A stretch of DNA of 64,000 nt from Marsupella aquatica. Taxonomy: Eukaryota; Plantae; Marchantiophyta. Position numbers and translations under genes: made by a program. The notes under the pieces were generated by a model. It made no database searches. It had not been told where the DNA came from and was given only the letters and a program-made list of their open reading frames with translations. Where the stretch lies: the NCBI GenBank assembly GCA_973895155.1, contig OZ316893.1, forward strand, positions 10,359,660 to 10,423,659, written 5' to 3'. Numbering within the stretch: the stretch's first letter is position 1; the number at the start of each line of letters is the position of its first letter. Shown piece by piece: positions 24,384 through 56,503 of the stretch.

Positions 24384-27300
24384 ATATAGCCTCCCTCCAA
24401 CATAGACCCCCTTCCCAACTTACCCCCTTGGCCCAAAAATACCGTTTGTAACCTTGACAATCCCTCCATATGTTGCCAGGGCCACAAGGACATCAGGATG
24501 CTTGCATTTGTCAAGCGCCACCACCCACACACCCATACTTACATGACCTTGGCATTCTAAAGTGTGGCACATGGGGGGCAAGTTCCACCGGTTTATGCAA
24601 ATCACTCCAAAGTCATACAACTTTGGAGCATTTTGCCCAAACTTGTGCCATGGCCTCAATACATGTATAAATGTGGCTTCAAATAAGTCTTTAAGATTGA
24701 AGTGGTGCAACTAGTGGTCCAGGGTTGATGGTGTCTCCGCCCTACTCCCTGTTGGCTGGGTAGACCACTTAATGTACGGCTCCATCCCTCCTAAGTAGGC
24801 AACCATAGGCCCAAGGATGCACCCAGTCATAACCGGCCCCACATCAATGACACCATCTTTGACAACTTTAATGACGCCTTTTAGAGTCATGGGCACAAAT
24901 GACAGCATTGGGGACTCACTAAATGACGCAAAAATGAGTTTACAAGCCTGGTACGTGATTGGGGTGAATGACTATCAATTACGTCATTCCAGGAGTAAGG
25001 CCAATAGTCATGGAGTGCAATCACTTGAAAGGGAGTCAATTTTGGAGTGGCTGGTATGTCATTCCAGTCAGTGGAAGTCAAGTCAAGGCATAACTTTACT
25101 AGAGTCTTATCAAAATTATATGGCTGGACTCAATGGATAATTGGTGCTAATGCTCCCTGGCACAATGTTGAGGTGAAATCCAATGTTAGTGTTGTCATCC
25201 TTCCAATCTAATATATGTTATTGCCTCTGAAGAGTGTAGGGTGAGATGTAGGAGCAAAAATTTATTCCCAAGCGGTAAAGGCATTCTCAAGCATAAATTC
25301 CTAAGTCAAAGGATTTTATGCATAAAATTTAAGCCATAGGTCATTCCTAAGAACATCATATTAAAGGTCATTCCTAGGTTAAAGGATATATACCCTAAGG
25401 CCTTAAGTCTTCAATATATTCTTTGGACTGAACCTTTCTCATATCACCTACACGTACAAACAAAAGGCATTTGCAAGTTGTTTACATAGGCCACTTAAGT
25501 ATGTAAATATCCCCGACTACAATGAGGGCATGGTTCATCAAACCAAGGTGTCATGAACAGTGTATACCATGAGGCCATTTACTAATGACTCAATTAGTAA
25601 ACCATAATTAAACAAATTAACTTCTAAACGCGTAATGAAGGGTTAGGAACCAGGTAGTGAACGAAGGAAAGCAGGGACGCGGAGGGATTGCTCTGCTCTG
25701 CTGTCGTCTAATCTCCTCTCTTCTAGTCTTCGCGCTCTTTTCTGTGCGCACATTTTTGCGACGATATATCCTTCGCGCTCGTTTCTGTGTGTAGATTTTC
25801 GCGACGATATATCCTGACGAGTGATCGATGAACTATCTTGAGAATGGCTCTTCATTCTGCTTAGAGATGATGCAAATGTTTGTTCATAGTAGTCACTAAG
25901 TGAGACGTGCATTCAATGGTATGTCGACGCAAAATTAGTACTCACTTGCCCAATGTTCCTTTTGATTGATGAAGTTTCTTGAAATCTGTAAGCGCATAGT
26001 TTTGGCTTCACAATTTCATGGACTTAGTTCTTGACTTAATTTAGGGTTCAGGTCATTCTCGGTGTTCATCAGGATATTTTCCACTCTTACGGTCAAGCAA
26101 TGGATTCACGGGTTTTCTAGCAGGAGGTGAGGTGATTGTTTAGGGTTTAGGCGACAAGACATGTGCCCAAGTGACGCAAGAGGAAGAGGGAGGAAAGGAG
26201 CAAGTTGCTATGACTATTGAGGTGACAGTCTGCGCTGATCTACTAGCTCCATTGTGTAAGTAAAAAAACTATTGCTATTGTTAGTGATTTGGTGTCTTTG
26301 ATTGTGGCAGTATATCCTCACTGAAGTTTTGCTGAAGACATACTTTGAAAGGCCTAGCCCTACAGAGCCGAACCATTCTCCCCAGTCTTAGACAGAACTC
26401 TAGTGATTGCAATTCTATTTTGTGGTGGGGTCTCGTTTTGAAGTGGGCTAGCTAGCGATCCCAACTTTTGTGCTTGTATGTATATCCTCCCGATATACAT
26501 TGCAGTGTTCTTGGTTGAATTGTGTCGCACCATTGTGGTCGTCGGAAGCAATTTTTTGAATCGCTTACCTTACATTCTTCGATAATAGAATTTTTGGTGT
26601 TCAAAGTTCCGCAAATTCTTACCCTTGGGAATGGGGGGATTGACATTATCTTCCTATATTTACCATTCTGGTTGTTAGTTATACCAGAGGTTGGCTGCAA
26701 ATTCTTTTAGTGAAACTGTTAATCATCTGGACTAACTTATTTAGTCATTGCAATTTTTTTATTGTCTGGATTCTCTACGGAGCTGTATTGTGAGAGACTG
26801 GAATAAAAAACGGAGCCAAATCACTAGTACATTTTGAGGCATTTTACCGATTGTATTTAGATCGGACGCCTTCAGGAAATCTGACGCGGAAATCTCACCT
26901 GTCCGATACCAAAAGAATCGCAATTTCCGATATAAATTTTATCGGAAAACGACATCGGAAACTAATCGGAACTACCGATACCAAAACATTTGGGAGTTCC
27001 GTCGCCTAAACTGTCGGGAAACACTATGTCCGATGCCCGCATAATTGGATGTCTGTTTCACGCATTTTCTGTTAGTGGAGGCGTCCGATTCTAGACCAAT
27101 ATTCTGGACATGGAAATGACCGATTGGTTTAACATCGGAAATGTCCGATGTTATTTGGAACGGAAATTGCGATTATAGTAGAATCGGACTTTGCGATACG
27201 TTTGGGATGGAAAAGTACGATGATTGTGGCATCGGATATGGATCGGTATCTACCCGGAAACTATTTGGCAAGCTTGATTGGGCCTATTTTAAATGGGGGG

Positions 27301-27615
27301 CTAATTGGGGGTTTAATTGGGGTGCAATTTAATTCTTTAACTGAGTTTTTATCTAGGGTTTAGAGAGGTCATTTAGTCAAGAGAGACTATCAATTTTGAT
27401 TGCACACTATGTACCTTGAAACCCGGGCATGACACGGCATAACTATATCTTATATACAAAAATGAAATATCGAGGGCAAAAGTACAAAAAATGGAGAACA
27501 TCTCCATGCATAGTGCTAGCTATGCTAAAGGCTGGGCATATCAAATGGACATAATGCCCTCCAACTATCCACCTCGCTAGCCTGGTACTAGATCTATACA
27601 TGTCTACCTAGTCCA

Positions 27616-30536
27616 CTATCCATACAAGCTATGTCGCGTCTTCCTCTTCTTCACACGGGAACGACTAGGCTGCTCTGCTCTATGAGTCTCTACCGCTGAC
27701 ACACCAGGTAGCACATCATGGTCGTGGCTACCTGATCTGCCTCCATCGTCATGTGGATGAGGTGCAGAAGCAATCTCTGGTACTCCCCCACCTCCAGATG
27801 CGCCTGAACCATGGGAAGGCACTCCTTCCCCGACACAAGTGTGGAAAGAAGCCCCTCCAGCACCACCACCACTACCCCCCTCAGGCCGAGTCTCACCTCC
27901 ACCACTATGACGGGAACCTCCCGACTGGGTGCCTACACCACCACTATGAATAGGATATGGTGTGGGCACATGACCACCAAGGCCCCCCCCGGACTGTCGC
28001 AAACCAGCTGGTACACTACCAGGGCTAGCCCTAAACTGATGAGGTGCAGCAACTCCACCACTACCCCCCTCAGGGCGAGACTCACCTCCACCACTATGGC
28101 CGGAACCTCCAGACTGGATGCCTACACCACCACTATGAACAGGAGATGGTGTGGGCACATGACCACCAAGGCCTCCCCCGGACTGTCGCGAACCAGCTGG
28201 TACACTACCAGGGCCAGCCCTAAACTGACGAGGTGCAGCAACTCCACCACTACCCCCCTCAGGACGAGACTCACCTCCACCACTACGGCCGGAACCTCCA
28301 GACTGGATGCCTACACCACCACTATGAATAGGAGATGGTGTGGGCACATGACCACCAAGGCCTCCCCCGGACTATCGTGAACCAGCTGGTACACTACCAG
28401 GGCCAGCCCTAAACTGACGAGGTGCAACAACTCCACCACTACCCCCCTCAGGGCGAGACTCACCTCCACCACTATGGCCGGAACCTCCTGACTGGCCAAC
28501 GACATGACCAGTATGAACACCAGCCCGTTGTCGAGACCCACCTGGTACAACACCAGGGCCAGTCCTCACTCGACCACCTGCTGTGGCTAGAACTCCAGAC
28601 TCACTACGAACCCCTTGGTTGTGACCTACTTTGGCTGGAACCCGGGACTCACTCCGTCCACTCCTACCGGCTAATCTCTGACGAGAAGGAGGCATATCAC
28701 CTGCTCTATGCTCCATCCGGCGAGTGGAGCCACCTACACCCCGACCAGACTGGTGACGTCCACTCTCTCGGGGTCCTGACCGGCCACGTGCACCAGTAGA
28801 ACCTCGTACTGGAGCCTCGGCCACACTCCCCTCTGAAGCACTATCATCCTCCGCATCCTCCTCATCCTCCTCCCCCTCACCATCCTCCTCACTCTCCAAG
28901 TCCTCCTCACCCCCTGACTCATCCTGCACATAGTAACAATCTCCAATCCATATGTCATTCCGCAACATACGTACCAGCATGAAGCCATCTTTCAAATCAT
29001 TCTAATATCCGCACTTACCGAGGCCAACATGTCGTCCATGTGAATCTTTAGCGCCCGAGCACCATGCTCCTTTGCCAGCTTTCTCTCTGCCGGCAACAAT
29101 GGTCGTCCGTGCTCTTTCTCCTACACACCCAAACCATATGCCACCCCCAATACTAAGGTCAATTATAGCAACCCTACCCTGGCCTAATTAAACACCTATA
29201 TAAACCCTTCACCGTCAAAGACCCATAAGAACACTTAGCCGTTCATGCACAAGCTATTCAAAAATTTGAATATGTCCGATACTAATAGAATCGGTACCCT
29301 CGACAGTTCCGATTCTTTTTTATTGTCCGATGCTGCATCCGATACTTAGAGGATCGGACTAGAATCGGACCTTACATGCCGAAAGCAAAAAAAACTAAGG
29401 CATGATCGACCGACCTACGGGCATACAAAGACCTGTCCCGGGTTTGGAAGGGTTAGGCATTCGTCAATTGGCCTCAGGTGATTAGGGAGGAGGAATGCTG
29501 CTGAAGGAATGCATGGAGAGGAGGGGAATGGAGCACTTACAAAATCGGCCTTGAGACGCTGTGATCCGCCTTGCCCCATTCTGTGAGTAACCTTTGGCCT
29601 CTTTGTTACTCTCAACAGAGCTTTCATTAGCCAGGATGGTGGGTCTCCAAGCAGGGCTGATTTTGCTGACCATTGTTCAAGTTCTTGATGCATGGGTGCA
29701 GTATTCACCATCTCTCCTTGTTCAATCTTCTTCTGAGCTGCTTGAATTTCAGCTTCCCAGCGTTGTGTGGCTTGCCAAGCTCGAACCTGCAACTCTTCTT
29801 CAAGCCAGGCACACCAAGCATTCTCAGGAATCTCACCAGTTGGGCTTCCCCCTTTCCTGATCACCTCCTCATCCAGTTTGCATTCAGCCAGGTACTTTCG
29901 CATCTTCTCTCGTACATGATTTCGCATGTCTGCAAGTGAGACTGAGATCTTTTTGTTTAAGAATCGATCGTCCACAAACGACCCATTCAAAAATCTCTCT
30001 TTGATTTGCTCTCGAATTCGAAATCTCTCATCCTGCTTCTTCTTCCCCCAGTAGTCCATCGGGCCAAAATGAGACCTCACAATCTGCCTAACTTGACTCC
30101 CAAACAAACGATAACTCCTGGAGAGTGGAGCACCTCCCTCATTCAGAAACAATTTTGGCCTCTTGGCCCTATCCTCTGCCTTCTTTCGTTCCTCCTGAAT
30201 TCTCTGTCGTTCTGCAGCCCGAGCCTCCCTCCTTAGGCTCTTCTCCTTTTGTCTTGGTGATAGGGCTTCCATTGGCATCTCTCTCTCGTCCTCCCTAGTG
30301 TTACGTTTCCTCTTCCTCTGCAATCTCTCCTCCTCGAGTCTGGCTTGGAAAGCTTTTTCTGCATCAGTGATGGCTACCTTCTGGGAGCTGTCGATCAGTC
30401 CTTGAGTGAGCTGGGCTACCTGCAATGCAACCTCCGGCGAGAGCCCCACCTTCTCCCTAAACAATTGAGCCATGACTTCACCATAGCTGCTTGATGGCCC
30501 GGCACCATCTCCCATCCCTCCCGCATTCCCTTCCAT
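27616..30536 (-). pseudogene. CACTA-B accessory (TnpA-position) gene with a Gly/Ser-rich repeat tail; one premature stop
   Basis: Exons 30536-29541, 29120-29019 and 28923-27616 are in frame, with an HRMGQGG motif at the end of exon 1. The TAG at 28374-28372 sits where sister repeat copies have CAG. Exon pattern and sequence are homologous to 53131-51076. Confidence 0.75.
27865..28490. repeat. 189-bp (63-codon) coding tandem repeat, ~3.3 copies
   Basis: TGTGGGCACATGACCACCAAGGC recurs at 27961, 28150 and 28339. Confidence 0.9.
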
Positions 30537-31600
30537 CGCTACGAGCTCTGCAAAGGTATCGTGAAATGCTCCCGATGCTTTTCCGACTAGAGTGCCTTCG
30601 CACTTTAGTCGGGTGACCTAAAAACCCAAAATGCATAACGTCCGATACTTTCTGCATCGGAAACTCCGATTCTAGGTCAATCGGACTTAGTATCGGACCC
30701 CTCCTCCAAAGTATCGGACTTAACCCTCCCAATGTATTTTCTGATGGTTTGTGAATCGCATGACCTTGGCATTTGGACTTTGGCATTTGGATCCCATGTA
30801 TACTATAATGACCCCCTTTATGTTAGTTGGGGGTTAATTATGCTATATTGTGGGCTTATTAGGTGTGCGGCGCAAAACGGGCATATCAACGTACAGTTGC
30901 CGTGACAAAGCTAGCACACTATTTTTTGGTGGGTATGGATGATCATTGAATGTATGTACCCAGATCTATTTTCAGTTTGATTTTAAATGATTCCCATTTT
31001 GACCATGAGGCAATGCTATATGCATGGTGCAACTTTTGGGGACTATAAGAAGTCACAAATTAAATTAACACTCTAGTGCCGTTTTGTGCAGTTTTGTATT
31101 TTTTGTTTTTGGAGGGTCGGGTCGTTGCTTTTCCTTGGTTTTCTTAGTAGGGTTTATTTTTGCCAATGCATTATGCACAGCGAGAGTACGCGCATCCAAA
31201 AGGTATGACATATATGATCCTCCAAAATGTATTGGAAATATTTGACATGATATATGCGTTACTTGTGGGAGTTTATAATTGGACATCCAACTCATCATTG
31301 ATTTTTATTAATTTCATTAATTATTGGTTTGTTACTTAGGTTTGCATGTATGTCATCTCATCTTTCAACTTCCCCACCTAGCCTGTATGTGCAGGTTTTT
31401 TTGGATTGGCCTTAGCATATAGTCTAAGGCTTAGAGCCTAGTAGGCACTGTAGAGCGCGGATATCATTCAGGTACTAATTAAGTCCAACACTGCAAATTA
31501 TTAACATACTATATATTTCCTGTTTGGGTTTACCTCAAGTTAGGGTGATGAATCAATCTTGCATTTTGGTAAAGACTTGTTTGTGTGTAATTGGCAGACA

Positions 31601-32904
31601 ATGTCGACTTCTGAGAGTTTGGATACAGATTCCGACTCTGACTTGTCTTCCTCTGAGGGGGACATTCCTCCTCCCCCTCAACAGCCTCGAGCACCCCCTC
31701 CATTAGGCCCTATTCCATGCTGGTGTCTTAGATGTAAAGGACTGGTGGTTCGTCAAGCGTGGCAGTCCATTGAACACATCGAAAACTATGGTCGACATGA
31801 GGGTGATTTACCGGGATATTCAGCTTGCCAGGTATTGCTTGACATGAACTCCGCTATATATGATACACTATCATAATAGTTGGCTGGTTTGAGACCTTTT
31901 AGGAGACAAGTATTAATTTTTGTTTGTTTATGATTGAATAGGTGCGTTGTAGGGCCCGTCCTCCATTGGTCTCTAGTCAACTATGGCATGATGCATTCCT
32001 AGCTGGTGCTAGACAATTGCTTGCATCATCAGTTGAAGACCCCGAGCAATCATGTACCCCCGCACATGTTCAGGCAGATGTTGTTCATGAACCCATAGTG
32101 GTAGAGTTGGGGCATGGTAGGGATGATGCACCGCCCCCTACTAGGGTTCTACGCACAAGACCACGTTCTCATAGACGTCGACAACAGCATGTAGTTCTAG
32201 ACACAGACCCATCCCATGAGCACTTTAGAAGGAGTGTTATGCCTCCACCAGGGGAGGAGTACATAGAAGTTGAAGGGAGGTTGGGCTTGTCATATGTGAC
32301 GGGAAAGGCAATCAGTGTCTTCAAGGATTTTGACCCTGAGAGTTTTGCGATTCCTCGTGGCCTAGCCATTGACATCCCTGTACATATATGGGGTCGGCAA
32401 TGGATAGTGAAGGCATCGACCCTTGGCGGGGAGGTTGGGTTAGGCTTATTTGCTTTGGAGGACATTGAGGTCCCTCCAAAGCCTTGGCGTCGTGGCTATG
32501 ATGGGGAACACCTTTTCCCTTACATTGGGCCTGTGTATACATCCAAGAGTTGGAACATCCTCTTGCGCCAACATCCAGCTTGGGGGGTATATGCATTGCA
32601 GATGGACTCAGACCCAGATGAGGTCCTAAGGAGGCCTTGGCATTGTAGGATGATTGATGGGGACCCTGTCCGTTCAGATAACATAGTTGGGTACATCAAT
32701 AGTACACATGGTAGAGGGAGTGGACTCTAGCCTAATGTAGAGTGGGCTCAGATTTTTGGCCCACCCACTCCGCCTTACTATGTCACACATATGGATGATC
32801 ATGTTATGACAGTAGCCATACGGACCATTAGGGCGGGTGATGAGTTGTTTTGTGACTATGAATGGAACGCACCCACGATGGGCATTCGATCTGGCCACAC
32901 TTAG
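31601..32904 (+). pseudogene. CACTA-B zinc-finger + SET-domain protein (short isoform); one premature TAG at 32728
   Basis: Exon 31601-31831 (acidic tract, CWCLRC...H..YG.H) joins exon 31942-32904 in phase 0. SET motifs: GLGLFA, YIG, NIVGYINS, PNVEW, VAIRTIRAGDELFCDY. Confidence 0.8.
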
Positions 32905-33013
32905 CACATATGTGTATTCCCCATTTTTGAAGTAATATAAGAATATTGTAGTTTTTTTAGGAACCCATGGGCTAACTCAAATGTATATATCTGTTTTGTG
33001 CGTTGTATGATAG

Positions 33014-36000
33014 AATGCATATGTTGAGCCGGATGTTGGGGTGTTACCACGAGCTATGCGCCAACACCTTGTGCAGGCCATGGAAGATTGGCGACATGCC
33101 TCTCTACCACCAGATGGCGATCCGGATGTTCCAGAGCAGGAACCAGATGCCTCCCAATCAAGAGTTGATGAAGATAGGGCCATGGATGACTTGATGCACC
33201 AATTCTATGACATAGAGGATGGTGATCATGACATGGCTGATGGGGAGAACATTGAGGTCCCACTTCCACATCAAGAAGGTTCAAGGAGTTCAGCCTCCAA
33301 ACAGTGGGAGGAAGCACGTCAACATGCGCAAACTCGGATATTTGATGGATCACGCTTGTCTCGTCTTTCAGCAATAATGTTGTTGTTGAACTTGCAGCAA
33401 AGACATGGAGCAAGCAACCTACTTCTTGATGATCTCTTTCGGACATTGCATGATTGTATCTTGCCAGAAGGAAACAACTTGCCAGACTCTTGGAAAGAGG
33501 CAAAGAAGGTGTTGAAGTCCATAGGTCTGCAGTACGAAGTCATACATGCTTGCGTGAATGATTGCGTTCTGTTTAGAGGCACTTATAAAGATGCAACGTC
33601 ATGTCCTACATGTGAGAAGCCTAGGTATCGTGAGGACATGTTGACGGGAAAAGTTCCTCAGAAGGTCATGAGGTACTTTCCTCTTATACCTCGTTTGCGC
33701 CACCAATATAGATGTGCTGAGTTGGCTGAGTATATGGTTTGGCATTCCCAAAATCGCTCAGATATGAGTTCACAACCACCCACCATGCGCATGATGGTTG
33801 ACTCCCCTACAAACAAGTTTGTGGAGGAGAGATGGGGTGAGTTCCGAACTGACCCACGTCATGTTCGCCTAGGATTGGCAGCGGATGGCATCAGCCCATT
33901 TGCACTAGCAGGTAAGGCCCAACCATATTCACTATGGCCAGTGGTCCTTACTAATTACAACATCCCTCCATGGATGTCCATGAAGAAGGGTCATTTGCTC
34001 CTTTCCATGATTATCCCTGGTCCTAAGCAAGTGAAAAAAATTGATGTGTACTTGCAACCATTGATTGAGGAGCTACAAAAGCTTTGGAGTGGTGTGGATT
34101 GCTATGATGGTCGAGTGCAAACGGGGGGCTTACGTCGAGAATTTAAGTTGAAGGCCATTCTTATGTGGACCATACATGATCTTCCAGGTATGAATCTTTG
34201 TTAAATTATCCCTTCCCATAGCTAGGCAACCGTACCTAGCATACTTTGTTATGTATTGAGTTAGCTAGAAGCACATATATCTTTTAATAAACTTATTTAC
34301 TTATGCATGGGATATATATTTATATGCAGGGTTTGGATATATTTCTGGCCTGACCACATCAGGATATCGAGCTTGCCCAACTTGTGGACCTGATTTGGAA
34401 GGAATAGCGCGGCCAAAGTCAAAGACCTTGAGGAAGATAGTGTATATTGGTCACACCAAGTACCTCCCTCCAGACCATGATTGGAGGAGAGACCCCTTTT
34501 TATATGACACTGAGGATGGCCAACCAGACAGACGACCACAACCTATTCCAAAAGATCCTGCATATTGGAAAGAGGTATGGGAGAGAGTATCTAATCCAGA
34601 TGACCCATTGCAATATGCCTGGTGTGGCATGACTTGTTTGTCTGCATTGTCACAACTGCCTTATTGGGCTGAGATGCCACTTAACCATTTATTTGACCCT
34701 ATGCACATTGAGGGAAATGTTGGGAGGTCCTTGATTCGCCACCTATATGGAGAGAAAGACAACAACTGGAGAGAGAGTTGTGAAGAGATGGGGATGCATG
34801 GCCCTCATGGTTTTTGGCCATCTATGGATCCCGATAATGCCCCCCTTACTATTCATCCTCCTTGGGTTTTGACACGAGGTGAGCGGACCGAGTTTCGCAA
34901 ACGCATAGGGTCTATGCGATTTCCTACAGGGTATGGTGCCAATCTTCGCAAGGCATTTGGTGGACTTGACTCTCCAAAATGGCCAGCTTTCTTGAAGACC
35001 CATGATTATCATCGCTTATTGCAACATGTTATTCCAATTGCTATTATTGGATTGGGTAGTGAGGATCTTCGTGATGCCCTTTGGTCGTTGGGTAAGTTGT
35101 TGAGATGGGTGTGTCAAAAGGAGGTGAACGAGGATGAGGTTGCAGCAATGGAGGTGTTTGGAGTGGAGGTTGTGTGCAAACTTGAAAGGGCCCTTCCTCC
35201 TTCATTTTTTGATGGTCAGGTTCATTTTCTACTACATCTAGTGCGTGAGGTTGGTATTGCAGGCCCTGTACATTGTCGTTGGATGTACTGGGTAGAGCGG
35301 TACATGGGAGTGATGAAGTCCTATGTTTCAAATCGCGCAAGGGTGGAAGGTAGCATTGCAAAGCGTCATCTTGGAGCAGAGAGCATGTTTTATTGTACAA
35401 ACATTATTGCTACACTTGATTCAAATGCTCCAAGCGGGTGGATAGATGAGGCATCAAGAGAAGCAGACTATGAGGATGACCGTTTGACAGGTGCAAAGGG
35501 AGAACGGCTTCTTGACCCTAGTGAGCACACTAAACTCACTGCATTCATGTTGTATAACTCTCCAGAGATTGTTGGGGAGTGGACCACATTTTATGAGGAG
35601 GATAAGCACAATAGTCGACGACCACGCTTATTTCCCAAATTCCACATGTACATGAAGGGGAAGTTGTTAGAAGTGGATGCCTTGGTGGTTGTTGGGGAGA
35701 GTGTATCACACTTCCCAATGGTGACTGATAAGTTGCGCACCTTGGTTCATGGACCTCTACTTACAGTTACAACCAGGACTGCCATGTGGTCCAAGGGGAG
35801 ACACTTTCGTGTGGAACGACTTGATGACAAGAGGGCAGCTACACAAGATTGTGGGGTGATGGGTTGGTTCACCCAGGATTCTGTAAGTAGCAGATCTGAC
35901 ACAAATCCCATCCGTTCTACTATAGCTCACTATGGAAAGATAGAGGAGATCCTTGTTGTAAAATACCATGCGCATACAACATTGGAAGAGGTGGTGCTGA

Positions 36001-36281
36001 AGTGCAAATGGTTTCGGATGAATCTTGTTGGCCACAATCGAACATGTGAAGAGGATGCTTGCGGCTTCACAAGACTGAAGACAGGGGCTGTCATCAGCTC
36101 AAATTGGAGGGCCTCAGATCCTTTTGCATTTCCTCATAATCTTGAGTAGGCATTCTATCTCCCTTATCCAGATGATCCTGAGTGGTCCATTGTAATGCCT
36201 TACATTCCACGATCCCGATCCATAGTCCAAGAACAGCCAAATGTAGTTGTTGTGGAAGATTTGGAAAATGAGAACAACTAG
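33014..36281 (+). pseudogene. CACTA-B TnpD-like transposase (Transposase_21, DUF4218, DUF4216 regions); shares first exon 31601-31831
   Basis: Exons 33014-34187 and 34330-36281. Motifs: IHACVNDC, RHVRLGLAADG, WPVVLTNYNIPPW, HDLPG, DPMHIEGN, KTHDYH, FFDGQVH, RWMYWVER, DPFAFP. One late TAG at 36147. Confidence 0.92.
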
Positions 36282-38459
36282 CTACTTAGGAATTTCATGG
36301 TAAAAGCTAGGTAGCTAGCACTAGCTAGACCTAATTAATGACCACTTCCCTCCATGTATTGACTTTTTCGGCATATATATGTTATCTACATTGTCATTAC
36401 CATTTTTTTGTTGCATGTTACTTTACTTATATATACCACTTAAATCTTTGGGCTCTAGCTGTGGCTATATATTTGTGCTTTTTAATATATATGAAATGAA
36501 AGCTTCCAATTCATTTCAAGTTGACCCTAGTTGAGTTCCCACATACTTCAAATGGATGTGGAGTCAAAAACCTATCGGAAACACAACATGCCTTAATTAG
36601 AAGCTAGGAAGATGATAAAACCCTCAAAAAACCCCGGCTCTACTGAAAACCGATATTTCCGATATTAAAAGAAACGGAACACATATGCCATACTACAGGT
36701 ATCGGGAAACTTTTCCATCTTTATCACATCGGAAATGACGTCCGTTTGTAATGGGTTCGGACACAAGTCGGAACATATTTCCGATTCCAAAAATATCGGA
36801 AATGTTTCATCCCTAAGTTCATCGGAACCAACATGCGATGTTTTATTTATCGGACGCCTCTTGCGTCGCGGTAGTCTCATTGTCCGATGCAGGTAGAATG
36901 GGAAATTCTCCGATAGTTTTTACATGGGAAACTATTTCCGATTCTAATAGTATGGGACAGTATGTGTCCGATGTAGAATTTATGGTAAATCCCCGATGCG
37001 GGGACAATCGGAGAGTACCGATCTTCTCTGTATCGGAAAGTGTTGCCGACCGAAAGAAGAGCATCGGAAAAACCCAAAATATGTACCAGTGAATGAACAT
37101 TGATTACACTGAAAAGATTGAAGCTCTGAAAATATTCCCTCTTCTGTTTGTGGATTTTCAGATGGACCATATTGCTGTCTATATACATCTGGCCAAGTGC
37201 GCAACGCAAGGCTCAACACAAAGGGAAGAGGAAGGAAAGGAGGAGTTGTGACGGTTCGCGCTCGACGGCATTGAGTAAGTAAGTAAACACAGAATGATGG
37301 GCATTTCAAGTATAGATTTTTGTGCGCCTCGAATACCAAGGCCTTCTTTGTTACATGTTCATAGACAAATTGCTCGTGATGACAAGTTGTGGCGCCGAGA
37401 GAAGATGGCAGCTTTGCAAGTTGGTGCTACTGTGAATCGATGCCCTTGCAACTAGTGTGCAGGAATTCGTAATGTTAGTGTCATGAATGTCCAGAAGCAC
37501 TTAGTAAGATATGGTAGGCATCCTTGGCATCGGGTTTGGCGAGGTGAGGAACATGATTCCTCAGATAATGAGTGGAATAGTGAATATATCCCAGGGTACT
37601 GTCATGGAGAACATATTCTGACCGAATCTCCAGATGCCATGGAAGAGGTCAATCCAGTCCTTGATGTTGGCATTGATGTCGACCGATTTTTAGGTGATCC
37701 CTTTTCTACGCCTAGTCCATTGAATGAAGCAGAGGAAGTTCGGACAGATTTTGTTGAAGAGGAACCTGAGAATGACCACTTTGACTTTGATTCGCTGTTT
37801 GACACCGATAACTCTAGTCCACCCACTGCCGAGCGGGGTGCTGAGAGCAGTAGCCCTCGGGGGTCTCACTATATGGAGGACCCCCCATCACCTGCGACGT
37901 TTTCATGCCTAGACCCCCATACTTATTAAGTTGAAATTTTTTTCCTCCCTCTTTCTTTCTTCTAAGAGTCTAAAATCCAAATTGTATTGCCCCTATAATT
38001 TGTGAAGTAAAGTGTCACATATCAATATAAAATGCCTAGAAAGAAAAGATAAGTCTATGTCAGTACCTTGTGAAGTCGTATGTCAGACATGGCACGCCCT
38101 GCAACAGTTCTTGCACCTTTGTCGACCTTAAACTTTGATCATTTCAATGCATCATTTATATTGTGTACCTAAAAGGTCATCCCAATATAAACCTTACGTG
38201 CATAAGTGGGATGGCCTTTAAGGTCACAACATAAATAATCCATTCCACCCATTGATCACCAATCCCATGCTCCATCCATACTCCATTTAAAACTTATGTT
38301 GAGAGATGTAACATGTGACGGAGGGGAATTGAACCCCTAATTGAGAAAGGATCTCAAGTTGCCAATCCGTCACCCCCTATCCTATCCCACTACACCCACT
38401 AATATTAACAAAATAAAACATATATACAGACTCTCAAAAACTAAACAGTAACATGATAT

Positions 38460-43036: not shown

Positions 43037-43535
43037 TGCAATACAAATCTAGAACATGCATAGCACCATTGCTTTTGGAGTCGATAACAGAAAGACCTGC
43101 ACAAATACATTTGAAATACACACAAGGGAAACACATTAGGATCTTCAAGAGATGCAATGACAACATACACATTCTCATGTCAGTAATGTACATAATGTCA
43201 GCATACATTTAACAATAGAAGTGCTAATAGGCCAAAACACTTTATAATGCAATCCATCATACATGCAAATGTATTCAGTGAAAATCATGATATACCGTTA
43301 AAGTTGGATAAAATATCTTTAGAAAAAATATCCTTTTTGCCTGGTTTTCTAACAATTCCCGAGGTTTAGTGGTTTTGCTCATCAAAATGCAGCACTATTA
43401 GTGATCGTAATTATGACAAAATGTCAACACTAATAAAATTGGGTACTACCACCCATGATGCAGCTTAAGTATATGCCTTGCTCATACCCCACTAAGACGT
43501 TGAAACCTAAGTAATAGGTTTATTCATTATTCAGA

Positions 43536-44285: not shown

Positions 44286-44537
44286 TTGAAGTAGTTACAA
44301 ACCTGCTCCAATGATCTGCAAACCTCCCTCCCAGATGAAGTCAACTACACAGTGCAGCCTGGACACCCACCAACCAAGACATACATAAATACAATGCCAG
44401 CTTGCGAAACTTTGCCACATAATGGGAATGAAAATTATTCTCATATATCATGGATGGTACAATTGCAGCCTTGCAAACAAAGGCCTAGTCATCCCGGACC
44501 TCAAGTCATGAACAACGCATCCATGTACTATCAGGGA

Positions 44538-47610: not shown

Positions 47611-50600
47611 TGTTTAGACCCCCGTTTACACCATTTTCTGCAAGGTACAAACAAAAGAGTCTCTCGTCCCAAACAACGGGTGGGGCCAAAGGGATAGTGG
47701 AGGGAAACCACACGGGAGGAGACTGACAAGGGCCAATTGAGGGAAATGAGACATGTTAACGGAACAATTCAAACTTAATCCCGGTCAAACCCTAAACATG
47801 AGTCCCCCAAAACCAGACCCACTTAAATCATTCTCAAATTCTTGCCATGTTAAACATGACTTAGGAAAATATATTGGGAATGTTATGTGTGCCATGTGTA
47901 CCAATGATATAGTGCCACGTGTAATTTACATAGTCCGATTCAAGGACCCCCTAACTTCCTTGTATGCCTTCCATCTACATAGTCAAAAATATTAATATCC
48001 CTATTGTTCTTACAAGTTGTCCAACATATAAAGTCGACCCTATTGTTCTTACACAAATCTTCTTAAGTCTTCCGAGAAACCCAATTAACGGACCCTATAC
48101 TTAGTCGCACGTGATATGAGATTTTCGCGAAGTGAGACCCCCCTGCAGTAGCCAAGACATGGATGATCCCATGGATCTTGCATTTACAGAGGCATGCACT
48201 CCATTGTACGAGGGATCAACAACTTCACAATTAGCTTTTGTGTTGTCTTTTTTGAACATTTGCCACAACAATGGCTTTTCCAATTCGGGAGTGGACAAAC
48301 TCTTGAGTGCGATGGGGGAACATCTTTTACCACCTAACAATTTGCTACCTCAGAACATCTACGCATGTAAGAAGCTGATCAAAAAGGTTGGATTGGATTA
48401 CATTAAGATTCATGCTTGTAAGAATGGTTGTATCCTGTTTAGAGGAGATCAATATAAAGATTTACAATAGTGTTTAGAGTGTAAGGAGCCCAGGTATAAG
48501 CAAGTGGGAAAGTCCAAGCAAGCTGTGAAAGTCCTGCAACACTTTCCTCTTATTCCATGTCTTCAACGGATGTATAAATGCCAACCAAGCTATTTCAAAG
48601 TTGATGACATGGCACAAGGAGAACGGCAGTACTGATGGCATGGTCAGACACGTTGCAGATTCAAAGGCATGGAAGTGGGTGGATAATGAGATTGACAAGG
48701 ACTTTGCTGCAGAACCACGCAACATCCGCCTTGGTTTAGCACTTGATGGTGTCAATCCATTTGGAAACAACAACCTGAAGCATTCCACATGGCCATTAGT
48801 CTTGTTGAACTACAATCTTCCCCTTGGCTATCTACAAAGAAGTTCTTTGTAATGCTGTCATTGTTAATTCTAGGGCCTGAGTCCGTGACAGACATAAATA
48901 TAGATGTATACATGGCTCCTCTACTTGAAGAGCTGTTGGAGTTGTGGAAAGGAGTGAACTGCTTTGATGTGGTAGACCGGCCAGGCAAAGATAAAGTCTT
49001 TACTTTACGAGCTGTGCTTTTATGGACTGTCAATGACTATCCAGCATATGGGCTAATCTCTAGACAGGTGACCAAAGGATATAGAGGGTGTGTTGTATGT
49101 GGTCCTGATGTGGAGGTCCGAAGGTCAAATGCTCTGAGCAAACAGGTTTTCCTAGGTCATCGACGATACTTAAGATTGGATCATACGTACAGGAACATAA
49201 ATTATGCAAAGTATTTCAATAGGAGATGTGAAGTACGCCCGGCACCACAACCAATGACATGCACAGAGAGGATGAAGTATGCAACTGACGTAGAAACTTA
49301 CTTGAAGAAACAAGGGGCTAAATTTGGAAGCAAGAATTGTCCTTCAAAAGTGCATGGAGTGAAGCGAAAGCCAACTCTGACTCAACTACCATACTGGGAG
49401 GTACAATTCTTGGAAGGGTCCATGATGTTTTGATTAATTGATAGCAATTGAAACAATCATGCCACTAAATTGCTTTTCAGTCCTGGCGTTCAGACATACT
49501 TCTAAGGGTGCTAATGTTTGATTTTCTGCAATGCAGAAGCTACTCATCAACCACACCATTGATCCAATGCACACTGAGAAGAATATTTCTGCAAATATAG
49601 TGCACACAATCAGCGGCAGAAAATATACTACAATTGTTCGGCAGGATATGTGTGCTGAAGGCCTTCACAAGAAGCTATGGCTTACTCCACACCCAAAGAA
49701 GGCAGATGCAATGTTAAAGCCCAATTAAAGCTCCTTATGTTTTGAGCCCTGGTGAGTTGATGTCATTCCATGACACGTTGAGGACATTGAAGGTTCCAAC
49801 CGATTTTGGCAGTTCCTTTGCCAAGTGTGTGAGTGCCAATAATAAGTTGGTTGGGTTAAAATCACATGATTACCATCAATTGATGCAGCAGATTCTCCCT
49901 TTAGCCTTAAGAAACCTTCTGGCCACGGGTCCTCGACTAGCTATCCAATGGGTATGCCGGCTATGGCGCAAGATTTGTTCAAAGGGTTGGGACCCATCTC
50001 AATTTGAATCATTGAAGCAGGATGTTGCATTCACTCGATGTGCTTTGGAAATGCACATTCCACCCTCGTTCTTTGATGTAATGACCCATTTAATGGTTCA
50101 TATTGTTGAAGAGCTTGACATTTGCGGCCCTGTAGCTCAAAGGTGGATGTATCCGGTTGAGAGATATCTTAAAGTGTTGAAGGGCTACGTTCGGAACAAG
50201 GCTTGTCCTGAAGCATCCATGGCAGAAGGTTACGCTTTCACTACTACACTATTGGCCCCTTTTGCGAACCCATACACATCGCAATCAACAAAGGCCCGAT
50301 AAACAGAATTCCGGCACTTGCGAACTAACATGCATCGCTACACCATCCCAAATTGCGAAGTTAAAACCTTCGCACGTGGACCATCGCAACGCCATCGCAA
50401 CACCATCACAATTTCCTAACCAAATTCCCTCGCAACTTGTCGAACACTTCCGAGTTCAAAATCGTTGCAAACGCTTCGCATTATGCCGCACGGTCCTTTG
50501 TTACCGATGTTGGTTTTTGTGAAGCTGGAAGGTTCGCTACGTGTTTGTGATGGGAATGAGTTTGATATTTGCGATGTCGTGGGGTTGGCAACTAGCGAGC

Positions 50601-51075
50601 CTTATAAGATCACTCTTATGCGAAATAAATTTGATGGGGACTTCTGATCTAAATTGGATCGGAACTTGTGAGTTGGTTTAGGCCAGAAGTTGGGAACCAT
50701 TTGACTTTGCAACTTGTGATGTTACTTGGTTCTATAATAGCGATCCGAGTCATTTTAGTATTTCCTAGTTATCCAAGTTTGCAATGGGTTCGCACTTTCA
50801 TGGGAACACGACTTTCAATCAATGTTTTGCAAGGGATTTCTCTTGGCAGTGGACCCAATGTGGAAGGCAAATGTTTTTTATAAGATCCATGCAAGTATAT
50901 AGGTGGATATACCAAAATGTTAGGGCTTGAATTAAGGAACCCAATACACAAGAGGGGTGGCATATCTGATGCCGGCCAAGTCACCCTACTCAACATATGC
51001 TATCCTAGCTAAGCTCCAACACGGCTAGTCATGACATGTATCTCATGAGCCCGATCATGAGATTCTACAAGCTAA

Positions 51076-53131
51076 CTAAAATGGACTCTTCCGACCCCGC
51101 TTTGTCAGCTTCTTTGCCGGCTTCTTGCCCTTATCCTTCTATGGATGTACAGCCTGGTGCTGACGGGTGCGCGGTGCCTTTCGGCGCTGCTGCTCCTCCT
51201 GCTCCTCCTCCTCCTCCTCCTGCCCATCCTCCTCCTCGTCACCTCCCTCCTGCTCCCCCTCATCATCAACCTGTCTTGATGATGCACGACTACTACCACT
51301 ACCGCGATGGGATGAACCTACCTCCCGGCTACTGCCCCTCTCCCTAGAATCGCTGGTAAGAGGAGTAGCCCCCTCATCCTCATCATCACTACTACTTGCG
51401 TCAGCACCCAACCCCTCAGGCTCATCCGAATCCTGCATCCGTACACTTAATCAGTTTCTACAAATTAAAAAGGGTCATCCACAATGTTGGCATCACAATT
51501 AATTAAACCTTGAACACCTAGATACTTACAGTAGCCAACTCGGCATCCACCATCTGAAAGAGGTACTTTCTCCCATGCTCCATCCCTATCTCAATATGTT
51601 TCTTGGATATCTTCCTCTTATATTTCCGGTACTGCCATGCACCATAAAACCAAAAAGTAAACCCATAGGCTAAACCAAAATTCACAATGCGAGAGGCCTT
51701 AGGCCTAGAAAAGTTAAACTACTTTGAAAACAACTCAAATTCACATTTGCAAAGCTAATGCGTTCACAAAATATGAAGCCCTAATTTTTGCGAAGGCATT
51801 GCGATGGCTTTTGCGATGCGCGTACCTTCGCAATAGCATCAGAAAATCCAAAAAGAAAAAAGTGCATAATAGAGTTTGCGAGGCTCTTGCGAACGAATAC
51901 GCATCGCAATGGGATTGCAAACTGTGATCCCGAGAGGTTTTTAAAAATGCGCAAATTTCTAAGTGTCAGTCGTGACCTAAAACAATGCACAAGCAAGCAC
52001 ATGAGAGCATGGACATTCATGACATTCCATTCACTTGCATTACCTCAACTGAGAAAGTAAGGAGGAAAGAGCTTAGGGAGGAGAGGAGACACTCACAAAG
52101 TGGGCCTTGAGACCGGGGAGCCCGCCTTGACCCAGCTTGTGGACTGGATTGGGGGTGGCTTTCACTCGCTTGGCTGCATCCATGAAACATTTGGGTGGTC
52201 TTCCTTCTTTGTCGACCACCTTTTGCACATCAGCTACCTTCTGCTCGAGTCCCTTCGGGTCATGGTCAAGGGGGAGCTTCACGGTCTCCTTTGCTTTCAG
52301 GGATCGAGCTAGTGTATCCTTCCATTGTTCCAACTCGCGAGCTGCTTTGATTTGCACCTCAATCTTGTAAAATGCATTCCAGATGTCCTCAGTGAATTGG
52401 AGGGGCCTGCGCAAATTCCTGTACGATCTCAAGTCTCTCAGGTGGGCTCTAATCTTCATCCTATCATGGTATCTCATTTGAGACATGGAATTAGAAATCT
52501 TGTCTGCCAGCCATTGCTCATCTATGTCAGCTCCATTACGAAATCCATCCTTGATCTGATTCATCACTCTCTTTCGCTCTGCCTTCTCAACCTTTCCCCA
52601 TTGCATGCCTCGTGAGAAATTGCTTGTGATGATTTGTTTGATGGTGCTCTTAGCCCCTGCATAGGCTAGCTCAGTTGGAGTCCCAGTTGTCTCCAAGGCA
52701 ATGAATGGAAGCTTTTTCCTTGCATCCTCTTTCTGACGTTGCTCATCTCGTTGTTTTCGAATTGCATCCCTCTCCTCTCTTCTCTTCTGTTTTTCTATGG
52801 CTTGAGGAGAGGCAACTCCCGACTTAGCCCTCTCCTCCCTCTTCCTTCTTTTCTCTCTAGCCTTCTCCTCAGCTGTGACCCTCTCTTCCTCGTCTCTAGT
52901 AGCTTGCCCTGCCACAATTCCTGTTTGCAAAACCTAGCCTAAAATGGCACTCAAGGAGGCAAGCCCTGCTGGAGTATTCAAATTTACTTCACCCAACTGT
53001 GCAGCACTGAGATGTTGGGCTACTAAGTCGCTCCATGCATTCTGTTGCTTCTCCTGATTTGCCCCATTGCCACTACCACCAGCACCATGTCCTCCACTCC
53101 CACCGTGCTCTCCACTCCCACCGGTAGCCAT
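51076..53131 (-). pseudogene. CACTA-C accessory (TnpA-position) gene; in-frame TAG stops at 52936-52934 and 51141-51139
   Basis: Exons 53131-52097, 51631-51530 (102 nt, the same length as in CACTA-B) and 51432-51076. HKLGQGGLPGLKAHF is homologous to HRMGQGGSQRLKADF. Confidence 0.72.
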
Positions 53132-53898
53132 AGCTCAATCCCTCTCAGGTCTCTCTCGATCTTCTCCCCGCGGCCCCTTCTCCTCTCGCTCTCCCGATCA
53201 AACAAGGAATGAGCTTGATGCGAGCTCCCGCCGACACTTACGCATTTCAAAAAAACCTCTTTGCGATCACATTCGCATCACAAACTGCCACCCTATTACC
53301 TTCGCAAACAGTCTTGCAACTTGCGATACTTTTGTGAAGAATATACCCTCGCTAATCCATCGCAACCCGTAGAAATGCCCAAAAATTGTTCTCGGCCTCT
53401 GTATTTGCGAAGATGTTGCAAACCCGGGAGGTTCGCAAAATGCATCTCTAATTTGTGAAGCAATTTGCGAGGCAGGTGATCTCGGTTTAGGGTGGGAAAC
53501 TATCCCAGGTGTTTAAACGGCTTTACAAGGGTATGGCCTATTTAAACCCTTTTAACTCAACATGGATTTGTGAATGGCCAATTAGTTTGAAGAAGAGGAT
53601 TTTAGGTTGTAGTTGGGCTTTGTGTTTTTGTTTTTGAATCTTAATTGGGTTCTAATTTAACAAAGGGTTTGAGTTTTAATTTGGGGTTTGGATTTAGAAA
53701 GGGTTTAGTTTAGGGAGGGTTGTGTTTCAATTGAAGGGGTTAATTTGGGTTTAGGTTTTAATGTAAGGGTTGGGTTTGACTTTTCACTGATTTCATATTT
53801 TTTGCTCTATACATATTTCAGTTTAGGGACATGGTTTTAATAGAGGGCTTTAAGTTAGGGTCTAAGGTAGAGGTTTGGGTAAGGTTGTAATTGAGAAG

Positions 53899-54256
53899 TT
53901 TGGGTTAGGGTTTAGGGTAGGGGCTTGATTTTGGTTTAAGTTTAGGGGTTTGGGTTAGGTTTAGGGTAGGGGCTTGATTTTGGTTTAAGTTTAGGGGTTT
54001 GGGTTAGGTTTAGGGTAGGGGCTTGATTTTGGTTTAAGTTTAGGGGTTTGGGTTAGGTTTAGGGTAGGGGCTTGATTTTGGTTTAAGTTTAGGGGTTTGG
54101 GTTTTTTTTAGGGTAGGGGCTTGATTTTGGTTTAAGTTTAGGGGTTTGGGTTAGGTTTAGGGTAGGGGCTTGATTTTGGTTTAAGTTTAGGGGTTTGGGT
54201 TAGGTTTAGGGTAGGGGCTTGATTTTGGTTTAAGTTTAGGGGTTTGGGTTAGGTTT
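53899..54256. repeat. 49-bp tandem array (~7 copies) containing TTTAGGG, within a ~1.1-kb G/T-rich telomere-like tract
   Basis: GGGCTTGATT recurs at 53921, 53970, 54019, 54068, 54117, 54166 and 54215. Confidence 0.93.
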
Positions 54257-55150
54257 TAAGTATAGGGGTTGGGTTCCATTTTAATTCTAAGTTGTGTTTC
54301 ATTTTTAATTGTGGGGTTTGGGTTAGGATTTTTGGGTAAGGGTTTGATACGTAATGAGGGAATATGGATAGGTAACTTAGGATGGAGTTTGAGTTAGGGT
54401 TTAAGGTAGGGGTTTGAGTAAGGTTTTAGCTGAGGGGTTTGGGTTAGGTATTGAATATAGGGGATCGATGGGTTCAATTATAATTCAAGCTTGTGTTTAA
54501 TTTTTAATTTAGGGATTTGGGTTAGGGTTTAGGGTAAAGGCTTCATAGGTAATGAGGGAGTTTGGGTTATGGTTTCAGATGGGGTTTGAGTTAGGTTTTA
54601 GCTGAGGGATTTGGGTTAGGGTTTGAATGTAGCAGTTGGGTTTTTAGCGTAGGGGTTTTGGTTAGCTAGGGCTTTGGGTAAGGGTTTTATATGTTCATGT
54701 TTAGGGTAGGTTTTTTTTCTAATTGAGGGTATGCTTTCTTTATTTCATTAACATGAAGGGGTAGAACACTCTAGGAGTTATAGGGCACTTCCCCATCGTT
54801 TTGAGAGTTTTGGCTAATGCATATGCATTGCGAGAGCTCGGGCATCTGAAAGGTAAAGCTTGTTTTCCTGGCATTTTTTATTTGTACTGTAACTTGAGGG
54901 TCTATCATCCCTTTCTATAGTTTACCATAAGTCATTGCTTAATTCATTGTATATTTGCAGATTTCTCCCTCCTACTTCCAGATTGGGTTCATCAAGTTTG
55001 GACCAAAAGACCTATAGGCATTGCTGAGCCCGGGTCTCATAAAGGTATTTTTTCCTTTCATTTCAGTTTAATATGTCTACTTAGGGATTACAAATGATCG
55101 TTTTAGCTATTTGTTTACTAACTCGCTATTCCAAATCTTCCACTTGCCAG

Positions 55151-56307
55151 ATGTCTTCATCCTCTACAACTTCCCCCACATCAGACTCCTCCTCTGATGA
55201 GGACATAGATCCTCCTCCTCAGCCTGAAACAGCCGCTCGTCGACCTAGTGGTCCACCACGCCAACTTTGCAGTTGTAAAAAATGTGTGGGGATGGTTGTC
55301 CAGAAGTCATATGTATGTGCAGACCATATTTCTCGATATGGACAACATCGAGGTCTTACACCCGGAGCCTCTTCATCCCATACGGTGAGTTGTAAACTTA
55401 CTATGGTTTATTTTTTATTCAATAAATATTGCTAGCATGATAAGTTGGGGAAGTTTACAATCACTTTGTTGGATTTGTTCCCTATAGGTATCTAATAGGC
55501 CTACACCCATGGCACCAGCACCCTATGTTCCCTCACAAGGAGTTCTAGATGCTATAGGCTCGGCCCTTTCACAAGCTTTCCGTTTAGTTGCAGCAGAGGG
55601 AAGTGGTGTTGGGACAGTTCAGGGTGATGGTATTGTTACACGAGGGAAAAAACGGTCTAAAAGGCAACCCAGAGGGGAAGTTGATCAGTACACCTGTAGG
55701 GTTGATGGTAGGTGGGGACCTTGTACATTCACAGGGAAATGTGAACATTCCTATCATAAAGGATTGGAATCCTGATTGCCTTGGTTTGCCATGTGATATA
55801 ACCTATGGTGAGGAAATAGAGGTTTGGGGAAGACATTGGATTGTCAAAAGTTCTACACTAGGGGAGAGACATGGGTATGGAATTTTTTCTTGCCAGGACA
55901 TCATTGTGGATGATATGGGTGGAAAAGGGCGCTCTCAAGATGGACCAACGTTGTTCCCCTATGGTGGACCCATTTACAAGCGAAGACATTGGAACATGCT
56001 CCTTGTACAACACCCTGAGTGGAAGACTTATGCATTGGACATGGATACTTTTGATGGTTGCACTAGGAAGTATAGTGAACAACGTATAATTGATGGTGAT
56101 CCCATCCGTAGTGGAAATATAGCCGGTTTCATTAACAGTACTGTGGGGACCCGGCCTAAGCGTAGGAAAAACTATGAATGGGTTTTTGTTGATGGTCCCC
56201 CTCCAGCACCATATGGGCAGAGATATCATCATGACCATTGTCTAGTTGTAGCTACTAGGACCATCAAGGCCGGAGAGGAGTTGTTTACACATTATGAGTG
56301 GGATTAG
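55151..56307 (+). pseudogene. CACTA-C zinc-finger + SET-domain protein (short isoform); frameshift near 55740, SET domain itself uninterrupted
   Basis: Exon 55151-55384 (CSCKKC...H..YG.H) joins exon 55488-56307. SET motifs: GYGIFS, YGG, NIAGFINS, VATRTIKAGEELFTHY. Confidence 0.82.
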
Positions 56308-56503
56308 GCTTATTTTAGGGATATGTATTATTTATATGTTCCTTCATGCTTTGTGAACATATATTTTGTAAGTTAGGGTTTACACCCTAAACCTATGATG
56401 TTCTTTCACATTGTATGTTAATAATATGTGTCGATATTGTTTTTGTCTTATGAGGGATTTAATTTGGAGTTTGATTGTGAATGCTTTATTGTATTGTCCA
56501 TAG

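What the first reader, a model, noticed from the sequence alone, without database searches (positions are those of the whole stretch)
31601..36281. The SET exon is an alternative terminal exon inside transposase intron 1: one zinc-finger exon, two possible proteins
Seen: in CACTA-B, exon 31601-31831 ends in phase 0 and can join either the SET acceptor (AG|31942) or the transposase acceptor (TAG|AAT at 33014), both phase 0. CACTA-C is the same: donor after 55384, acceptors at 55488 and TAG|AAT at 56504. The SET exon has its own stop and an AT-rich 3' tract. The shared exon holds the CxCxxC..H..YG.H finger, which in CACTA-A is contiguous with the transposase. Inference: a splicing/polyadenylation switch produces either ZnF-SET or ZnF-transposase. 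The shared finger could target the SET domain to the element, and intronic chromatin state could feed back on isoform choice.
Basis: partly seen in the sequence, partly recalled or inferred. Interest (0 to 1): 0.78.

Follow-up and report, generated by a model that had tools for sequence, protein, structure and literature searches.

The report
Transposon finger exon, two alternative partners
A family of "CACTA" jumping genes, with relatives in mosses and liverworts, carries an exon for a histone-methyltransferase-like (SET) protein inside its transposase gene, and one zinc-finger exon is likely spliced to either partner, which would let the element switch between jumping and marking chromatin; both copies in this window are broken and no RNA was available to test the switch.

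Summary
B has a stop inside SET and a late transposase stop; C has a 4-base insertion in the SET exon and a truncated transposase. Public DNA runs show family copies without the three point lesions. The order divergent ORF–finger–SET–transposase recurs in metagenome loci. SET-bearing transposases form one branch among relatives whose finger is contiguous with the transposase, so the SET exon was likely inserted once into an intact gene. Finger–SET is supported by 22 database gene models (peat mosses, Calypogeia). Finger–transposase has no database protein, but the TAG|AAT acceptor is conserved and codons before the first ATG are constrained as protein. SET folds as a true SET domain and is under purifying selection. 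No RNA run was listed, so junction use, the poly(A) site, finger targeting and chromatin feedback are untested here. Transposon-borne SET genes and spliced CACTA isoforms are known; I did not find this nested shared-exon layout in print. The scan noted it before in peat moss; one unchecked note reports both junctions in RNA. New variant; interest 0.55.

The parts
26822..37091 (.). CACTA-B, whole element, 10,270 bp, ends CACTAGTACAT / CACTGGTACAT, 3-bp target duplication AAT; TCCGA/TCGGA motifs clustered at both ends and around the divergent ORF
29418..30536 (-). Divergent ORF of B (largest exon; first ATG 30536). No Pfam family; likely the TnpA-like accessory protein (inferred from position). 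Further GC-rich minus-strand frames at 27616-29001
   Evidence: conserved in C (33-34%) and in 6 loci; dN/dS 0.14 for C vs L021
31395..31471 (+). Predicted non-coding leader exon of B (AG| ... |GT); C has a matching one at 54961-55044
   Evidence: sequence only; inferred
31598..31831 (+). Shared finger exon of B (ATG 31601; 77 codons; CxCxxC..H..YG.H; phase-0 donor)
31942..32904 (+). SET exon of B (linker plus SET domain); premature TAG 32728-30 in this copy
32905..33013 (+). AT-rich spacer: candidate SET 3' end and 3' end of the long intron, with CTAAC branch-like site 42 nt before the acceptor
33014..34187 (+). Transposase exon of B after TAG|AAT (Transposase_21, E 1e-40)
34330..36281 (+). 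Last transposase exon of B (Transposase_21, DUF4218); premature TAG 36147-49 in this copy
37441..37855 (+). CACTA-A finger and acidic linker, in frame with its transposase (48154 to about 50238) across a nested insertion; no SET
50239..57704 (.). CACTA-C, left end CACTAC, inserted in A's transposase; right part cut off by another element; TTGCGA motifs at the end and around the divergent ORF (52076-52933, minus)
55151..55384 (+). Finger exon of C (78 codons; weak Transpos_assoc match, E 0.011, below cut-off)
55488..56307 (+). SET exon of C (Pfam SET E 9e-6), frameshifted by a 4-base insertion near 55744
56504..57704 (+). Transposase exon of C after TAG|AAT; later exon missing

Best explanation
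This is a CACTA transposon lineage with a SET-fold exon lying between its zinc-finger exon and its transposase exons, and the finger exon is likely spliced either to the near acceptor (finger-SET, about 400 aa in B, ending at its own stop) or, skipping the SET exon, to the far acceptor (finger-transposase, about 1,120 aa in B). Shown: layout, phases, conservation, purifying selection, SET fold, one branch of SET-bearing transposases. Inferred: an intron with the SET exon was inserted once behind the finger of an ancestral one-frame finger-transposase gene, and both junctions are used. Most likely the SET protein methylates a histone lysine on the element to keep it transcribable, as other transposon accessory proteins counter silencing (about 0.4; substrate not assignable). 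The SET transcript ending at a poly(A) site in or just past the spacer is about 0.45; chromatin feedback on the choice about 0.15. The 0.72 below is for the two-junction model only.
For: (1) Donor at the same codon boundary in B, C and 11 of 11 loci holding the finger (GTG|GTAAGT in 10); TAG|AAT in 14 of 15 loci holding the transposase start. These loci are mostly near-copies, so about two lineages besides B and C. (2) The acceptor's TAG is an in-frame stop, yet the six codons between it and the first ATG are conserved as protein between C and L001: VRPSQD vs IRPSED, 8 base changes in 18, including AGC/TCT serine; simulated P about 0.01 for identity, about 1e-5 by BLOSUM score. In B the invariant P and LP lie before the first ATG. 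One relative has a Gln codon in place of the stop (IAQ|NIW, P0283), as expected of a YAG acceptor. (3) No donor scoring 5 of 7 or more in phase 0 inside the SET exon or spacer of B, C, L004, L006, L020, apart from the GT that opens B's SET exon. (4) 29 of the 150 best transposase relatives carry the finger in the same protein. A profile from 27 of them scores the B and C exons 12.2 and 17.5 bits, above 200 of 200 shuffles each. Splicing gives finger-to-HAC spacing 215 and 229 aa, against 224 in CACTA-A, 212 and 228 in its kin. (5) SET-labelled transposases lie on one side of a 100/99 branch, with contiguous-finger rows in both other main branches. (6) 22 database gene models join finger to SET, from Sphagnum species and Calypogeia fissa; P0001 and P0008 use the same junctions as C and B. 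(7) dN/dS C vs loci: finger exon 0.29, SET core 0.20, transposase exon 0.12. (8) Model pLDDT 85; SET-fold Z 12.7, rmsd 2.2 A over 124 residues. (9) Lesions are not family-wide.
Against: No junction read was seen here. 0 of 367 proteins held join finger directly to transposase, though one search also missed known finger proteins such as P0001, and single-isoform gene finders would favour the near acceptor. The gene models are predictions whose RNA support I could not see. C-type elements keep an ATG at codon 8 of the transposase exon, a usable independent start. The pre-ATG test is one pairwise comparison on a region picked after seeing it. Five gene models fuse a SET piece to the transposase (P0039, P0090, P0116, P0119, P0124). 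The spacer has no AATAAA and is only 110-196 nt. Motif III reads INS, not NH (S in 42 of 48 rows), and C-type proteins end right after motif IV, so catalysis is uncertain.
Confidence: 0.72

Rival explanations
1. Two separate genes in tandem: a two-exon finger-SET gene, and a finger-less transposase that starts at its own ATG from a promoter in the SET exon or spacer, or is spliced from the non-coding leader exon.
For: All finger-bearing gene models go to SET; ORF calls of the transposase start at internal Met. ATG at codon 8 is conserved in C-type elements. Arabidopsis CACTA families have moved between spliced and split-gene layouts (PMC13547354, passages).
Against: Protein-level constraint before the first ATG; B's first ATG is codon 15, after invariant residues. 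The acceptor is conserved. The finger is the usual transposase N-terminus. Starts of ORF calls on unspliced DNA carry no information on splicing.
Confidence: 0.15
2. One fusion protein, finger-SET-transposase, made through a donor inside the SET exon.
For: Five gene models have this form (P0039, P0090 from Sphagnum; P0116, P0119, P0124 from Riccia sorocarpa).
Against: Their joins differ from one another; four lose SET motif IV and several lose conserved transposase residues. No strong phase-0 donor lies in the SET exon. The stop after motif IV is conserved in the loci.
Confidence: 0.06
3. Both junctions exist, but the SET isoform is mainly a brake: it diverts transcripts from the transposase, and its protein is a non-catalytic binder or a finger-sharing competitor rather than a chromatin writer. 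This is compatible with the best explanation's splicing and differs only in function.
For: Missing motif-III histidine and no post-SET segment. Splicing as a brake is known for P and Ac elements (PMC4158355, passages).
Against: GxG (47 of 48), motif-III N (47 of 48) and motif-IV tyrosine (42 of the 43 rows that reach it) are kept; dN/dS 0.2. PR-type SET enzymes such as PRDM9 lack that histidine and are active (recalled, not checked).
Confidence: 0.3

Closest known systems
En/Spm (CACTA) TnpA and TnpD from one gene by alternative splicing: maize Spm, Arabidopsis EN/SPM3 and 7 (PMC13547354, passages and section 11; bioRxiv 10.64898/2026.08.24.746577, passages)
   Same: Same superfamily; a transposase and an accessory protein from one transcription unit; TnpA of Spm3 has anti-silencing activity.
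   Different: There the accessory product is a DNA-binding protein derived from the transposase. Here it is a captured SET enzyme fold lying upstream of the catalytic exons and sharing the finger exon, and the TnpA-like candidate is a separate gene on the opposite strand.
Plavaka (EnSpm/CACTA superfamily) accessory gene PAG2 of red algae (bioRxiv 10.1101/2025.02.11.637652, passages)
   Same: A CACTA-superfamily element carrying a SET domain, proposed to act on chromatin.
   Different: PAG2 is a separate gene, SET fused to an adenine methylase; no shared exon with the transposase is described in the passages read.
HarbingerS and MuDR families of Phytophthora, and Helitrons, with SET genes (PMC12730594 introduction; same red-algal preprint; the Repbase Reports themselves not seen)
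   Same: SET methyltransferase genes as transposon cargo.
   Different: Other superfamilies and hosts; described as accessory genes, not nested exons.
IBM2/ASI1-EDM2 control of proximal poly(A) sites in heterochromatic introns, Arabidopsis (PMC10241880, abstract and passages)
   Different: Shown for host genes with intronic transposons in flowering plants; nothing here tests it for this element or host.

Membership tests
CACTA (En/Spm) transposon | CACTA/G terminal inverted repeats with 3-bp target duplication | tested here: met
   B 26822-37091, 12 of 14 terminal bases match, TSD AAT; C has only its left end
CACTA (En/Spm) transposon | Tnp2/TnpD transposase | tested here: met
   Transposase_21 E 1e-40 and DUF4218 E 1e-28, above cut-offs
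CACTA (En/Spm) transposon | Subterminal repeats | tested here: met
   TCCGA/TCGGA 6-14 per kb at B's left end and last full kb vs 1.5 per kb outside; TTGCGA 7-8 per kb in C vs 0.3
CACTA (En/Spm) transposon | TnpA-type second protein | tested here: inconclusive
   Conserved divergent ORF, but no match to a TnpA family or solved structure
SET-domain lysine methyltransferase | SET fold | tested here: met
   Pfam SET in 42 of 48 aligned members at E up to 0.1; Foldseek 294 PDB matches at E<=0.001; Z 12.7. Model is of homologue P0003, 72% identical to C's SET
SET-domain lysine methyltransferase | Motifs GxG, NHS, ELxxxY (motif names recalled) | tested here: inconclusive
   GxG 47 of 48, N 47 of 48, E-L 42 and 39 of 48, Y 42 of 48; the histidine is replaced by S in 42 of 48
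SET-domain lysine methyltransferase | Methyl transfer and substrate lysine | not testable with these tools
   Set1, EZH2, ASH1L, SET7/9 and SET8 tie within 1 Z
Transpos_assoc (PF13963) finger | Score above Pfam cut-off | tested here: not met
   C 16.4 bits vs 27.7; B none; a partial piece of A's finger also none
Transpos_assoc-like N-terminal finger of CACTA transposases | Homology to fingers contiguous with transposases | tested here: met
   Own profile: 8 of 8 test sequences above all 200 shuffles each; the training set was picked by a similar Cys/His pattern, which favours a match
Alternative terminal exon | Both junctions in RNA, and a poly(A) site before the far acceptor | not testable with these tools
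   No RNA holder listed; the five runs laid behave as DNA

The most novel reading that the evidence does not exclude
A bryophyte transposon made its own chromatin writer by hanging a captured SET exon on its transposase's finger. The finger brings both proteins to the element, SET writes an activating histone mark there, and the mark shifts the splice/poly(A) choice: a self-contained epigenetic switch between hiding from silencing and jumping.
Probability: 0.12. Interest if true: 0.88.

Novelty: new variant of a known kind. Interest (0 to 1): 0.55.

Why it matters
Known transposon anti-silencing factors in plants (VANC, TnpA) bind DNA; none in the papers I read is a histone-methylating enzyme of a land-plant element. 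If finger-SET is active, mosses and liverworts hold a transposon-encoded chromatin writer whose dose is tied to transposase dose by one splice choice. That is testable by RT-PCR, long reads and an in vitro assay. Two subfamilies (B and C, SET cores 46% identical) coexist here and in Calypogeia, so the layout is old and maintained.

Tried and rejected
No whole genome is held. No RNA holder listed; none of the listed joints and 53 matches a predicted intron, and contigs run through the introns, so these runs say nothing on splicing. A 20-base probe for the spliced finger-transposase junction found 0 of 34 loci; the loci are genomic, so this is uninformative. First fold (2-row alignment, truncated B SET) failed, pLDDT 29. 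Single-sequence PDB search with C's SET: no match; profile search only E>=0.011. The complex prediction of finger with divergent-ORF protein was not available, so whether the finger docks on that protein is open. The protein Atlas gave no answer. Viral SET structures match no better than cellular ones (best E 6e-7), so a viral origin is not supported; distant hits L033/L034 are weak (E about 1e-4). Three of the dN/dS pairs were out of frame and were redone. Close copies give dN/dS 0.47-1.13 (7 pairs), as expected of decay after insertion. (PHD ORF vs SET profile) was uninformative. Assembly error as cause of the lesions was considered: the two stops read T where family copies read C in a CAG context, which fits methylation decay, but error is not excluded, since the T at 36147 is absent from all laid contigs. 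Literature: searches found no description of this layout (0 papers with 5 of 6 terms). Repbase Reports, subscription journals and supplements were not seen and may hold annotated bryophyte EnSpm families with SET. bioRxiv 2024.09.22.614159 and PMC4749557 (passages) gave nothing relevant.
Full report
Setting. The window is eukaryotic, with host genes (an NB-ARC/LRR gene, Spb1) and a nest of DNA transposons. No genome is held and the host is not established; the closest named relatives of the element's proteins come from the liverworts Calypogeia fissa and Riccia sorocarpa and from peat mosses.

Observation. CACTA-B spans 26822-37091 with CACTA/G ends and a 3-bp target duplication. On the plus strand it has a 77-codon finger exon (donor after 31831), a SET exon from 31942 to a stop at 32902-04, a spacer of about 110 nt, and transposase exons 33014-34187 and 34330-36281. 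On the minus strand, head to head, lies a conserved ORF of no known family. CACTA-C has the same order (donor 55384, acceptors 55488 and 56504). All joins are phase 0. CACTA-A has no SET, and its finger reads in frame into its transposase once a 10.3-kb insertion with a 9-bp duplication is removed.

B has TAG at 32728 inside SET and at 36147 in the transposase; C has a frameshift in the SET exon and loses its last transposase exon. In four public runs laid on B, C replaces T at 32728 in 336 of 486, 2131 of 3864, 1432 of 1661 and 17 of 17 units of contig depth (the rest is T or a letter not listed), and at 36147 in all depth in 4 of 4 runs. On C, four bases at 55744 are absent from all covering depth in 3 of 4 runs; the fourth has no cover there. 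So the family is intact where these copies are not. The runs behave as DNA and contigs drop rare variants.

Conservation of layout. A scan of metagenome contigs gave 34 loci, 22 of them close relatives (62-79% to the query). Where long enough they show divergent ORF, finger, SET and transposase in the same order. The finger donor is at the same codon boundary in 11 of 11 loci that hold it, and TAG|AAT in 14 of 15 that hold the transposase start. Most are near-copies of one family and count as about one witness. Finger exon, SET core, transposase exon and divergent ORF give dN/dS 0.29, 0.20, 0.12 and 0.14 between C and these loci.

Finger to SET. Of 367 proteins held, 22 join the finger to SET, from several Sphagnum species and Calypogeia. 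P0001 continues VSSRP where C reads VSNRP, and P0008 joins at the position predicted for B. These are gene models; I could not see their RNA support.

Finger to transposase. No protein held shows this join. The indirect case is good. The acceptor's TAG closes the frame upstream, yet the six codons before the first ATG are kept as protein (VRPSQD vs IRPSED; 8 of 18 bases differ; P about 0.01 by identity, 1e-5 by BLOSUM score; one pair, chosen after inspection), and in B invariant residues precede the first ATG. No strong phase-0 donor lies between the finger donor and this acceptor in five sequences. The finger is the usual start of CACTA transposases: 29 of 150 relatives carry it in the same protein (many others are fragments), the B and C exons match a profile of 27 such fingers above all shuffles, and splicing restores the spacing seen in CACTA-A. 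In a tree of 47 transposase cores (2 candidates dropped as too short; midpoint root), 8 SET-labelled rows are one side of a 100/99 branch and contiguous-finger rows fill both other main branches. Three of the 8 labels were given by likeness to the loci's transposases, not by seeing SET beside them, and 3 unlabelled rows fall inside the branch. This fits one insertion of an intron plus SET exon behind the finger.

The SET protein. A model of intact homologue P0003 (pLDDT 85) has the SET fold; Set1, EZH2, ASH1L, SET7/9 and SET8 tie (Z 11.7-12.7), so no substrate follows. GxG, the motif-III asparagine and the last tyrosine are kept, the motif-III histidine is not, and C-type proteins end just after motif IV. 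Activity is plausible, not shown. B- and C-type SETs form separate groups, each with a Calypogeia member.

Mechanism. I judge it most likely (0.72) that one transcript is spliced from the finger donor to either acceptor. Whether the SET form ends before the far acceptor is open: the spacer is short, no richer in AT than the introns, and lacks AATAAA. The likeliest role of finger-SET is to methylate histones on the element against silencing (about 0.4, by analogy). Family-specific motifs at the ends and around the promoter suggest a sequence reader; by analogy with TnpA that is more likely the divergent ORF's product than the finger, which could dock on it. This could not be tested. Feedback of chromatin on the choice has a precedent in Arabidopsis (PMC10241880) but no evidence here.

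Comparison. SET cargo is known in HarbingerS, MuDR, Helitrons and red-algal Plavaka, and CACTA elements are known to make two proteins by alternative splicing. Eight answered literature searches found no SET exon nested in a transposase gene and sharing its finger; Repbase Reports and supplements were not seen. The scan recorded the same layout at least six times in peat moss: one note reports both junctions in RNA, two say the transposase join was untested. I could not check the RNA claim. This window adds a second subfamily, a SET-less relative beside it, and the evidence that the lesions are copy-level.

Verdict. Real layout, family-level and conserved; two-junction model likely; switch, targeting and feedback unproven. 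New variant of a known kind, interest 0.55.

Noticed in passing
window 37856-48144: Insertion in CACTA-A with a 9-bp target duplication and GGGGGTCTCAC-type ends. It holds 804-aa and 698-aa minus-strand ORFs without a Pfam match and a multi-PHD ORF (43539-44294; PHDvar_NSD above cut-off, NSD2 PHD region E 5e-5). It may itself be several nested pieces.
   Followed up: partly
window 57900-61821: Minus-strand DUF7869 ORF (582 aa, E 4e-51) and a 538-aa ORF interrupt CACTA-C in its second transposase intron; probably another transposon.
   Followed up: no
window 53832-54640: Array of about 49-bp units rich in telomere-like TTTAGGG between C's divergent ORF and its leader exon; absent from B.
   Followed up: no
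window 27858-28495: 189-bp unit repeated about 3.4 times (93-95% identity) in a Gly/Ser-rich minus-strand frame of CACTA-B.
   Followed up: no
window 23544-24419: Minus-strand ORF with an RNase H1 N-terminal (Cauli_VI) domain, E 4e-17, just left of CACTA-B.
   Followed up: no
L024-L032; proteins P0056-P0064: A distant SET group (about 30% identity) with the same G.P...NIAG.INS motif; no transposase similarity in their short contigs.
   Followed up: partly
window 55753-56304 vs L004: Synonymous distance to the peat-moss-like loci is 0.9 in SET, 1.5 in the transposase exon and 2.1 in the divergent ORF. If the host is a liverwort, 0.9 is low and might hint at transfer between bryophytes; host unknown, so only a lead.
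   Followed up: no
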